Shown: one piece after another, positions 14,888-15,394 of the stretch | How the letters are laid out: each line of letters begins with the position of its first letter | How positions within the stretch are numbered: the stretch's first letter is position 1 | NCBI RefSeq assembly: GCF_963676935.1 | Contig: NZ_OY781470.1 | Coordinates: 1,210,680-1,274,679 of the forward strand | Length of the DNA: 64,000 bases | From: Halarcobacter sp. | Lineage (GTDB): Bacteria; Campylobacterota; Campylobacteria; Campylobacterales; Arcobacteraceae | Direction of reading: 5' to 3' | Notes under the pieces: model-generated | Database searches by the model: none | What the model was told of the DNA's origin: nothing | What the model saw: only the letters and a program-made list of their open reading frames with translations | Translations under genes and position numbers: made by a program

Positions 14888-15394
14888 TTATAATAATCCA
14901 AATAAAGCAGATGCTCCTGCCCCAATCAAACTAGCTACACTACTATTTTGTAAAAGGGTTTTCAAAGTAGCCTTTGCCTCATCATCACCACTTTTTGCAA
15001 TATGCTCAACTAACTGCTGAAAACTTATATTTGTAATCTGTGAATTGTGATTACCAACTTGAATTTGCTCACCTGAAATTGAGCCTATATTAATAGTTGA
15101 TGATTTTTTATTTGAAATATGAGCTTGAGCAGTAGTGTTTTCAACTTTTAGAGTAAGTAAATTAGGATGTTTTGTACCAACATTTAATGTACCACCATGA
15201 AGAAATGAAACATCAACAACTTTTAGATTAATTTCTCTTTTTCCTGACTTTTGAGCAATTATATCTCCTATCCCAACATCTGGTTCATCGCTATAAGGAA
15301 TTCTAACTTCCCCTTTTGACATATCTCTGAATCCTTTATGTTCACTTCCATCTATATAAATTATTTCTGGATAAGCTAACTTATCAAAATCCAT
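14888..15394 (-). CDS. Cassette protein: beta-rich N-domain, RHIM-like motif, C-terminal hydrophobic helix
   Basis: 168 aa; residues 101-123 INIGSISGEQIQVGNHNSQITNI; ends VASLIGAGASALFGLL; AAGGA RBS. Confidence 0.8.
   Translation of the reverse strand: MDFDKLAYPEIIYIDGSEHKGFRDMSKGEVRIPYSDEPDVGIGDIIAQKSGKREINLKVVDVSFLHGGTLNVGTKHPNLLTLKVENTTAQAHISNKKSSTINIGSISGEQIQVGNHNSQITNISFQQLVEHIAKSGDDEAKATLKTLLQNSSVASLIGAGASALFGLL

What the first reader, a model, noticed from the sequence alone, without database searches (positions are those of the whole stretch)
15026..15094. RHIM-like amyloid motif in a small three-part cassette protein
Seen: residues 101-123 read INIGSISGEQIQVGNHNSQITNI, between a beta-rich N-domain of about 85 aa and a helical tail ending in a hydrophobic Gly/Ala helix (VASLIGAGASALFGLL). 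Established: RHIM core (I/V)Q(I/V)G with downstream Asn, e.g. RIPK3 VQVGDNN. Bacterial amyloid signalling motifs (BASS) and, as I recall, an amyloid-based anti-phage pair (Bab/Agp) have been reported. Inference: the N-domain could mimic or bind a phage structural protein, the motif could polymerise, and the tail could damage membranes.
Basis: partly seen in the sequence, partly recalled or inferred. Interest (0 to 1): 0.75.

Follow-up and report, generated by a model that had tools for sequence, protein, structure and literature searches.

The report
Mobile RHIM-like membrane-tail cassette protein
A small, horizontally mobile gene encodes an unstudied protein that joins a sensor-like barrel, a conserved motif resembling the RHIM amyloid switch of animal cell death, and a greasy tail, which makes it a good but untested candidate for a one-gene anti-phage suicide switch that works without the TIR gene beside it.

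Summary
Residues 101-123 of a real 168-aa ORF (14888-15394, minus strand) read INIGSISGEQIQVGNHNSQITNI.

The three-part layout is confirmed: a confident beta N-domain (1-89), a segment that AlphaFold leaves unfolded (90-121), and four short helices ending in a Gly/Ala-rich hydrophobic helix.

A single hit to the RHIM core pattern means nothing by itself: it occurs twice in this genome and 2.05 are expected. The core Q112-x-G114-x-x-N117 is nevertheless (near-)invariant. The roughly 71-residue C-terminal module is fused to many unrelated N-domains. Pfam RHIM is the commonest family match among relatives, and two reach its threshold. The window protein itself does not match.

The gene is self-contained mobile cargo:
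- It is a single-gene integron cassette with its own attC in at least 14 genomes.
- It is also a prophage moron and phage-satellite cargo (phrog_5789, function unknown).

The adjacent TIR gene (PDC-S66) is never its neighbour elsewhere (0 of 33 and 0 of 35 loci). The pair here is most likely two cassettes fused by attC loss.

No partner carries the motif, so classic two-protein amyloid signalling (BASS, Bab/Agp) is not met. The head-closure mimicry idea is not supported.

Best reading, at moderate confidence: a one-protein abortive-infection effector. Function, fibril formation and membrane damage are all untested.

The parts
14888..15394 (-). 168-aa ORF (stop codon at 14888-14890). Member of phrog_5789, function unknown.
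   Evidence: phrog_5789 matched over its full length, E 7.4e-63
15128..15394 (-). N-domain, residues 1-89: small beta-barrel-like domain. This is the exchangeable part of the wider family.
   Evidence: pLDDT about 90, six strands; relatives carry other N-domains; no significant fold relative
15098..15127 (-). Variable linker, residues 90-99
   Evidence: entropy 1.97 bits against about 0.9 in the flanks; pLDDT below 50
15026..15097 (-). RHIM-like Asn/Gln/Gly/Ile-rich motif, residues 100-123 (TINIGSISGEQIQVGNHNSQITNI). Conserved core Q112-x-G114-x-x-N117.
   Evidence: conservation; unfolded in monomer models; Pfam RHIM hits in relatives on this stretch
14939..15025 (-). Two amphipathic helices, residues 124-152, with invariant A140-K141 and near-invariant L148 and N150
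14891..14938 (-). C-terminal Gly/Ala/Ser-rich hydrophobic helix, residues 153-168 (VASLIGAGASALFGLL). G158 is invariant.
   Evidence: (mean Kyte-Doolittle hydropathy 1.94 over 16 residues)
14816..14884 (-). attC recombination site of the cassette (69 nt): R'' GCATAAC at 14884-14878, R' GTTCAGC at 14822-14816, stem 14832-14846 / 14852-14866
   Evidence: The same R'' lies directly after the stop codon in homologous cassettes of other genomes.
15395..15435 (-). 41-nt gap between the TIR stop and the ATG. It is too short for an attC and keeps only GCATAAT, a possible R'' remnant. Read as the junction of two fused cassettes.
   Evidence: TIR homologues elsewhere have a full attC at this position.
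15436..16350 (-). Coiled-coil plus TIR gene (PADLOC PDC-S66). It lies in the same cassette here but is not a conserved partner.
16375..16484 (-). Upstream attC (R' GTTAGGC at 16381-16375) that bounds the TIR + 168-aa cassette

Best explanation
The 168-aa gene is a self-contained, horizontally mobile cargo gene. It belongs to an uncharacterised modular family (phrog_5789 and relatives).

The family keeps a constant C-terminal module of about 71 residues. That module holds a RHIM-class Asn/Gln/Gly motif, two amphipathic helices and a Gly/Ala-rich hydrophobic terminal helix. It is placed behind exchangeable small N-domains: a beta-barrel here, and winged-helix-like, zinc-ribbon and other domains elsewhere.

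The most likely function is a one-protein anti-phage (abortive-infection or exclusion) effector. In this model the N-domain recognises a phage-derived cue. The motif is unstructured in the monomer and drives homo-oligomerisation into a beta assembly. That assembly frees or clusters the hydrophobic tail helix, which perturbs the inner membrane.

The neighbouring TIR gene is an independent single-gene candidate defence system (PDC-S66). It shares a cassette with this gene only because the attC between them was lost.

Shown: gene reality, architecture, motif conservation, modularity, mobility, independence from TIR. Inferred: defence role, sensing, beta assembly, membrane action.
For: Architecture.

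Conservation: the motif core is conserved across N-domain-diverse relatives, and it is as conserved as the folded domains although AlphaFold leaves it unfolded.

RHIM likeness: Pfam RHIM is the top recurrent match, with two relatives at or above the gathering score. Weak hits to a second short amyloid-motif model (PF17108, 23 positions) fall on the same residues.

Modularity:
- About 30 representatives share only residues 91-168.
- Some relatives stack two N-domains, as in P0123 and P0130.

Stand-alone unit: in at least 14 loci an attC R' lies 25-45 nt before the ATG and an R'' lies directly after the stop. No neighbour is conserved in 33 loci.

Typical defence-cargo niches:
- a four-cassette integrase-less array carrying HEC-01 and PDC-S66;
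- the moron slot between Rz and terminase of an E. coli prophage;
- capsid-encoding satellite-like elements of 15-17 kb;
- patchy distribution: 2 of 401 genomes of its own class and 29 of 5426 E. coli genomes.

Precedents: integron cassettes are known to be rich in anti-phage systems (bioRxiv 10.1101/2024.07.02.601686). Amyloid-switched membrane effectors act in phage defence (Bab/Agp, bioRxiv 10.1101/2024.11.07.622273).
Against: No experiment exists, and there is no hit in PADLOC, Pfam or NCBIfam for the window protein.

The window protein itself does not match the RHIM model, and it lacks the first Gly of the G-phi-Q-phi-G signature.

No templating partner carries the motif. Known amyloid signalling uses two proteins.

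The hydrophobic tail is only 16 residues long. In some sub-families it carries Glu or Lys (P0183, P0199, P0206, P0220), so a true transmembrane pore is not assured.

The helical part shows no fold similarity to HeLo, Bell or MLKL domains.

An earlier internal check of this scan priced the fibre-dependent mechanism at only about 10%.
Confidence: 0.45

Rival explanations
1. The protein is a membrane-associated phage, satellite or cassette accessory protein whose conserved motif is not an amyloid. The motif would be an ordinary beta-strand oligomerisation or binding interface that folds only in a complex. The function would be something other than suicide: superinfection exclusion, interference with helper-phage head assembly, or a lysis-timing role.
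For: The gene sits beside capsid or lysis genes in satellites and prophages. In the module-only model the motif has pLDDT of about 70 without regular secondary structure, which is compatible with packing on a partner. The tail is amphipathic in some sub-families. The RHIM model is short (22 positions) and carries little information.
Against: The same gene travels alone as an integron cassette in marine bacteria, with no phage or satellite context. Composition (N/Q/G/S/T/I/V, no Pro, almost no charge) and the RHIM hits fit amyloid-signalling motifs better than a generic interface.
Confidence: 0.3
2. The protein is half of a two-gene Thoeris-like system. The adjacent TIR protein would make a nucleotide signal on infection. 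The 168-aa protein would bind it through its beta-barrel (as Cap15 does), oligomerise and disrupt the membrane.
For: The two genes are 41 nt apart in one cassette with no attC between them. The TIR protein matches ThsB-type models. Barrel-plus-membrane-helix effectors are known in CBASS (from my own knowledge of the Cap15 literature).
Against: No co-occurrence elsewhere: 0 of 33 loci of the small gene hold the TIR, and 0 of 35 TIR loci hold the module. That includes the 88%-identical small-gene homologue and the 87%-identical TIR (L039). Each gene is a complete single-gene cassette with its own attC in other genomes. PDC-S66 is listed as a single-gene candidate. The TIR linker is variable and has no matching motif.
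Confidence: 0.05
3. The protein is an anti-defence decoy. A phage- or satellite-borne copy of the motif would co-assemble with and poison a host amyloid-signalling defence, as viral RHIM proteins do in animals.
For: The family forms a PHROG and occurs in phages and satellites. Viral RHIM decoys are established in animal viruses (mentioned in 10.1101/2020.01.06.895854).
Against: Most copies lie in bacterial integron arrays beside defence genes. No host protein with the motif was found in the window's own genome, which has a single module copy. The conserved hydrophobic tail has no use in a decoy.
Confidence: 0.05

Closest known systems
Bab/Agp abortive-infection system of E. coli ECOR25 (BASS11 amyloid signalling; bioRxiv 10.1101/2024.11.07.622273)
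   Same: A small protein in mobile defence contexts. It combines a roughly 23-residue Gly-punctuated N/Q-rich motif, unstructured in the monomer, with a small helical domain that holds a hydrophobic Gly-containing helix thought to attack the membrane. Even an IGS(V/I) tetrapeptide is shared with the assigned Bab stretch I87-G88-S89-V90.
   Different: Bab needs a partner (Agp, 1094 aa) that carries the same motif at its N-terminus; here no partner exists. The domain order is reversed: Bab runs hydrophobic helix, sheath, motif, and this protein runs sensor, motif, helices, hydrophobic helix. No homology to Bell or Babybell was detectable.
RHIM (Pfam PF12721) of RIPK1/RIPK3/ZBP1/TRIF and the related fungal PP and bacterial BASS3 motifs
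   Same: Relatives reach the Pfam RHIM threshold. As in RIPK1, the motif lies between two other domains of one polypeptide.
   Different: The window protein does not match the HMM. The first Gly of G-phi-Q-phi-G is displaced by two residues. BASS3 was described in multicellular Actinobacteria and Cyanobacteria, on Bell-domain proteins paired with NLRs. This family occurs in unicellular Gammaproteobacteria and Campylobacterota-like genomes, with no NLR.
HET-S/HET-s of Podospora anserina
   Same: Concept only: an amyloid-forming segment that controls a membrane-targeting helical domain in the same polypeptide.
   Different: No homology. HET-S is templated by a prion or by NWD2. Its membrane helix is N-terminal.
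Integron-cassette anti-phage systems (bioRxiv 10.1101/2024.07.02.601686 and 10.1101/2024.07.02.601719)
   Same: A streamlined single-gene cassette of unknown function in an array with defence cargo.
   Different: Text searches of the Darracq preprint for 'amyloid', 'TIR' and related terms found no mention of this family or of any amyloid-type motif, and I found no paper that links RHIM motifs to integrons.
Cap15-type CBASS effectors and Thoeris (TIR + effector)
   Same: A small beta-barrel plus a membrane helix, with a TIR gene next door in this window.
   Different: No co-occurrence with TIR or any cyclase. The order of barrel and membrane segment is reversed. No sequence or fold match.

Membership tests
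RHIM (Pfam PF12721) | Match to the Pfam RHIM HMM at or above the gathering score (20 bits) | tested here: not met
   The window protein gives no RHIM hit at E <= 1 or <= 10. Relatives with the homologous module do: P0216 at 24.9 bits and P0228 at 20.0 bits. Weaker hits occur in 10 of 62 and 7 of 34 members.
RHIM (Pfam PF12721) | Core (I/V)-Q-(I/V)-G followed by Asn two or three residues later | tested here: met
   I111-Q112-V113-G114-N115-H116-N117. Q112 and G114 are invariant and N117 at least 90% conserved. The pattern alone is at chance level in the genome: 2 found, 2.05 expected.
RHIM / PP / BASS3 | Central G-phi-Q-phi-G signature (10.1101/2020.01.06.895854) | tested here: not met
   The sequence is G108-E-Q110-I-Q112-V-G114, so the upstream Gly lies two residues further away.
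RHIM / BASS / functional amyloid | Forms cross-beta fibrils and templates its own fold | not testable with these tools
   Only indirect data: unfolded in monomer models, N/Q/G/I-rich composition.
BASS-type amyloid signalling (Bell/NLR pairs; Bab/Agp) | The same motif at the C-terminus of an effector and the N-terminus of an adjacent receptor | tested here: not met
   The gene is a single-gene cassette with no conserved neighbour. Its own genome has one module copy. The TIR neighbour lacks the motif. The motif is internal, not terminal. Only 2 of 33 loci (L024, L027) have a second module-bearing gene directly upstream.
BASS-type amyloid signalling (Bell/NLR pairs; Bab/Agp) | Bell/HeLo-like helical domain with an N-terminal pore-lining helix | tested here: not met
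   No Pfam hit and no fold match for the helical module. The hydrophobic helix is C-terminal.
BASS11 motif | Sequence match to the BASS11 consensus of Bab and Agp | not tested
   The Bab and Agp sequences and the logo are not in the held text. Only the published residue labels (I87 G88 S89 V90, Q92, D99, N100) could be compared. They match IGS(I/V) but not the spacing of Q and DN.
Integron gene cassette | attC with R''/R' boxes and an imperfect palindrome directly 3' of the gene, plus a cassette boundary (R' of the preceding attC) 5' of it | tested here: met
   The window attC lies at 14884-14816. At least 14 homologous loci have both boundaries around the single gene. In the window the 5' boundary lies upstream of the TIR gene, at 16381-16375.
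Thoeris-like TIR + effector system | Conserved co-occurrence of the TIR gene and the effector gene | tested here: not met
   0 of 33 and 0 of 35 loci; also L034.
Known anti-phage defence families (PADLOC-DB 2.0) | HMM match | tested here: not met
   0 families for the 168-aa protein.
   In BFVD, head-tail adaptors appear only at E 0.11-0.16, and the best PDB hit has E 0.012 and is an unrelated barrel. No Pfam or PHROG head-closure hit.

The most novel reading that the evidence does not exclude
This family is a minimal, single-polypeptide RHIM-class death switch of unicellular bacteria. An exchangeable sensor domain, once clustered by a phage cue, would nucleate a cross-beta assembly of the Q-x-G-x-x-N motif. 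That assembly would release a glycine-rich helix that breaches the membrane. This would be a necroptosis-like or HET-S-like logic compressed into about 170 residues and spread by integrons, prophages and satellites. It would extend RHIM-type signalling beyond multicellular lineages and beyond two-protein receptor/effector pairs.
Probability: 0.15. Interest if true: 0.85.

Novelty: new variant of a known kind. Interest (0 to 1): 0.6.

Why it matters
If the model is right, amyloid-type switching in phage defence would not need a separate receptor. It would also not be confined to filamentous bacteria, and it would exist as a plug-in module that evolution re-attaches to many sensor domains.

That would give a very small, tractable system (168 aa, active alone, testable in E. 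coli) for studying how a RHIM-class motif is triggered and how it couples to membrane damage. It would strengthen the case for deep ancestry or convergence between bacterial abortive infection and animal or fungal regulated cell death.

Even if the amyloid part fails, the family is a widespread, unannotated cargo of integrons, prophages and satellites, and it deserves a function.

The negative result also matters for annotation: the TIR-plus-small-gene pair in this window is not a two-gene system.

Tried and rejected
1. Pfam, NCBIfam and PADLOC scans of the 168-aa protein gave only sub-threshold noise (L1R_F9L, TRAP_alpha, RodZ).

2. A phmmer search of PDB sequences found only designed WD40 repeats, through summed weak repeat hits. 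These are spurious.

4. A profile search with N-domain-diverse relatives (A3) returned mostly the same close family and added little.

The scan with A1 gave 16 loci, mostly 15-kb elements. I did not analyse them further.

6. TIR partnership is rejected on co-occurrence and because the TIR linker has no shared motif.

7. JGI's 'CsrA' name for one homologue, and a weak TIGR00202 hit, fall on the motif (QVQVG against CsrA's QVRIG). I take them as spurious.

8. Weak EAD10 (E 0.024-0.11) and P22 gp7 (E 0.0024, below the cut-off) hits are not significant.

9. The promoter and terminator scan found fewer sites than shuffled controls and is uninformative.

10. The Bab and Agp sequences could not be obtained from the paper text or supplements, so there is no direct BASS11 comparison.

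12. An encapsulin cargo-peptide likeness of 'TVGSLIG' was considered from memory. I dropped it because no encapsulin context exists and the segment continues as a longer hydrophobic helix.

Full report
**1. What is there**

The finding lies in a real gene. ORF 14888..15394 on the minus strand encodes 168 aa, with an ATG start and an AAGGA ribosome-binding site 8 nt upstream. Codons 101-123 occupy exactly 15026-15094 and read INIGSISGEQIQVGNHNSQITNI.

The protein has more than 140 homologues of 60-99% identity, nearly all 166-170 aa long and all annotated 'hypothetical'. In a library clustered at 50% identity it has 117 representatives. It matches phrog_5789 (function unknown) end to end at E 7.4e-63. 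It has no hit above threshold in Pfam, NCBIfam or PADLOC.

**2. Architecture**

AlphaFold2 on a 62-sequence alignment gives three parts:
- a confident beta-rich N-domain, residues 1-89, with pLDDT of about 90;
- an unfolded stretch, residues 90-121, with pLDDT below 50;
- four short helices at 125-135, 138-149, 151-157 and 160-167.

A second model of residues 98-168 alone, built on 34 module sequences, gave the same helices and no regular secondary structure in the motif.

The last 16 residues (VASLIGAGASALFGLL) have a mean hydropathy of 1.94. The two preceding helices are amphipathic.

No fold relative was found for the N-domain or the helical part.

**3. Is the motif more than chance?**

As a bare pattern it is not. 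[IV]Q[IV]G..N occurs twice in the ORFs of the window's own 3.1-Mb genome, and composition predicts 2.05.

As a conserved element it is:
- Q112, G114, N117 and N122 are invariant in close homologues.
- Q112 and G114 are invariant, and N117 at least 90% conserved, in 34 module sequences whose N-domains are unrelated.
- Residues 100-123 are as conserved as the folded N-domain (0.86 against 0.91 bits of column entropy). The real linker 90-99 is free to vary at 1.97 bits.

A segment that is strongly constrained yet unfolded in the monomer, rich in N/Q/G/S/T/I/V, free of proline and almost free of charge, fits a motif that folds on assembly or binding.

**4. RHIM likeness**

The window protein does not hit Pfam RHIM. 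It also lacks the first Gly of the G-phi-Q-phi-G signature shared by RHIM, PP and BASS3.

RHIM is nevertheless the single most recurrent Pfam match among its relatives. It hits 10 of 62 proteins with the homologous N-domain and 7 of 34 module sequences. P0216 scores 24.9 bits and P0228 20.0 bits against a gathering score of 20, both aligned on the motif.

Weak hits to a second 23-position amyloid-motif model (PF17108) fall on the same residues.

Bacterial Pfam-RHIM hits have a precedent as true amyloid motifs in BASS3 (10.1101/2020.01.06.895854). So 'RHIM-like' is a fair description of the family. 'Is a RHIM' is not shown for this protein.

**5. Modularity**

About 30 representatives share only residues 91-168 with the query. 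Their N-terminal parts are unrelated to one another:
- a zinc ribbon (P0154);
- DUF2513-like winged helices (P0169, P0191);
- several unnamed domains of 45-175 aa.

Some relatives stack two N-domains ahead of the module (P0123, P0130). The constant part always lies at or within a few residues of the C-terminus of a protein of at most about 275 aa. A variable head on a constant tail is the pattern expected of a sensor-plus-effector design.

**6. Genomic context**

The gene is mobile cargo.

In the window it ends a four-cassette, integrase-less integron array:
- GNAT gene;
- DUF7686/DUF7713 gene;
- HEC-01 ATPase plus DUF4276;
- TIR plus the 168-aa gene.

The array has attC sites whose R' boxes lie at 18857, 18308, 16381 and 14822.

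The gene's attC (14884-14816) starts with GCATAAC three bases after the stop codon. The same arrangement recurs in many homologous loci. In at least 14 of them the preceding attC ends 25-45 nt before the ATG. There the gene alone is the whole cassette.

Across 33 loci no neighbouring gene is conserved.

Elsewhere the family occupies other accessory slots:
- the moron slot between Rz and terminase of an E. coli prophage;
- the slot between the capsid gene and the replication genes of 15-17-kb capsid-encoding elements, which I read as phage satellites;
- Klebsiella plasmid or phage records.

The distribution is patchy: 2 of 401 genomes of the window's own class and 29 of 5426 complete E. coli genomes. 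All this is typical of defence or competition cargo. Integron cassettes are documented reservoirs of compact anti-phage systems (10.1101/2024.07.02.601686).

**7. The TIR neighbour**

The gene 41 nt upstream encodes a coiled-coil TIR protein. It matches the single-gene PADLOC candidate PDC-S66 over its full length at E 1.7e-109.

It is not a partner:
- None of 33 small-gene loci has it.
- None of 35 TIR loci has the module.
- The 88%-identical small gene (L034) and the 87%-identical TIR (L039) each stand without the other.

In Halomonas, Pseudomonas and other genera the TIR gene is itself a single-gene cassette with a full attC. In the window only GCATAAT remains of that attC.

The TIR linker is variable and holds no Q-x-G motif.

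The pair here is most simply two cassettes fused by attC loss. This contradicts the sister note e1-5268748.

**8. Mechanism**

The best-supported reading is a one-protein abortive-infection or exclusion effector. The N-domain senses, the motif oligomerises, and the hydrophobic helix acts on the membrane. This parallels Bab/Agp and HET-S, but without a separate receptor and with the domain order reversed.

The steps beyond architecture, conservation, modularity and mobility are inference.

Points against:
- no templating partner;
- a short tail that is charged in some sub-families;
- no RHIM HMM hit for this copy;
- no experiment.

A lead worth noting comes from two Enterobacterales elements (L024, L027). 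There a 245-260-aa protein with the motif but a degenerate tail sits directly upstream of the 168-aa gene. That is the layout of a receptor/effector amyloid pair.

**9. Earlier notes of this scan**

Several earlier agent reports describe the same family on E. coli satellites and reach similar readings. One later check priced the fibre-dependent mechanism at about 10%. These are not independent evidence.

This report adds four points:
- the integron-cassette proof;
- the chance control for the core pattern;
- the independence from TIR;
- the count of RHIM hits across the family.

**10. Verdict**

Noticed in passing
window 16482-18237 (-): A two-gene cassette with an AAA_21/AAA_15 ATPase (371 aa) overlapping a DUF4276 protein (221 aa). 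They match PADLOC HEC-01A (E 2.8e-148) and HEC-01B (E 7.5e-64). The cassette is bounded by attC sites with R' boxes at 18308 and 16381.
   Followed up: partly
window 18433-18828 (-) and 18915-19421 (-): Two further single-gene cassettes of the same integrase-less array. One is a DUF7686+DUF7713 protein (131 aa). The other I read as a GNAT-type acetyltransferase from its sequence; it was not scanned against any family library. R' boxes lie at 18857 and 19443. No integrase ORF was seen in the ORF list of the 64-kb window.
   Followed up: partly
window 15436-16350 (-); loci L040-L045, L051: The PDC-S66 TIR gene is itself an integron cassette with a canonical attC in Halomonas, Pseudomonas, Vibrio and other genera. 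Its coiled-coil N-half and TIR domain are highly conserved (mean column identity 75%), but the linker at about 140-168 is hypervariable.
   Followed up: partly
L024 4221-4958 and L027 4135-4920: In two Enterobacterales capsid-encoding elements, a 245-260-aa protein sits directly upstream of the 168-aa gene. It carries the same motif (NIQLGSNN, YVQFGTSNN) but a degenerate, charged tail. This could be a receptor/effector pair sharing the motif.
   Followed up: partly
L008 2836-3456: A neighbouring integron cassette in Vreelandella zhanjiangensis encodes a protein with the motif (NIGSLNAQNVQVGDQN) followed by a different, non-homologous helical C-terminus. The motif can therefore be combined with other tails.
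   Followed up: no
proteins P0125, P0126, P0136: These are longer or truncated relatives in which the motif and tail are scrambled (for example TVGSESGEQTPGSEKE) and run into unrelated sequence. They look like frameshifted or decayed copies.
   Followed up: no
window 14759-14807: A second near-perfect inverted repeat (13-nt arms, 92% complementary) lies just beyond the attC, in the 360-nt spacer before the Sel1-repeat gene. Its role is unknown; it could be a terminator or an attC remnant.
   Followed up: no
window 43611-43758 (-): FMN riboswitch (RF00050, 115.9 bits), unrelated to the finding.
   Followed up: no
BFVD hit A0A9E7LIB8: This is the best viral fold match to the whole model (E 1.2e-4, 154 aligned columns). 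It is an unnamed 274-aa phage protein and may share the three-part architecture. The sequence could not be fetched.
   Followed up: no
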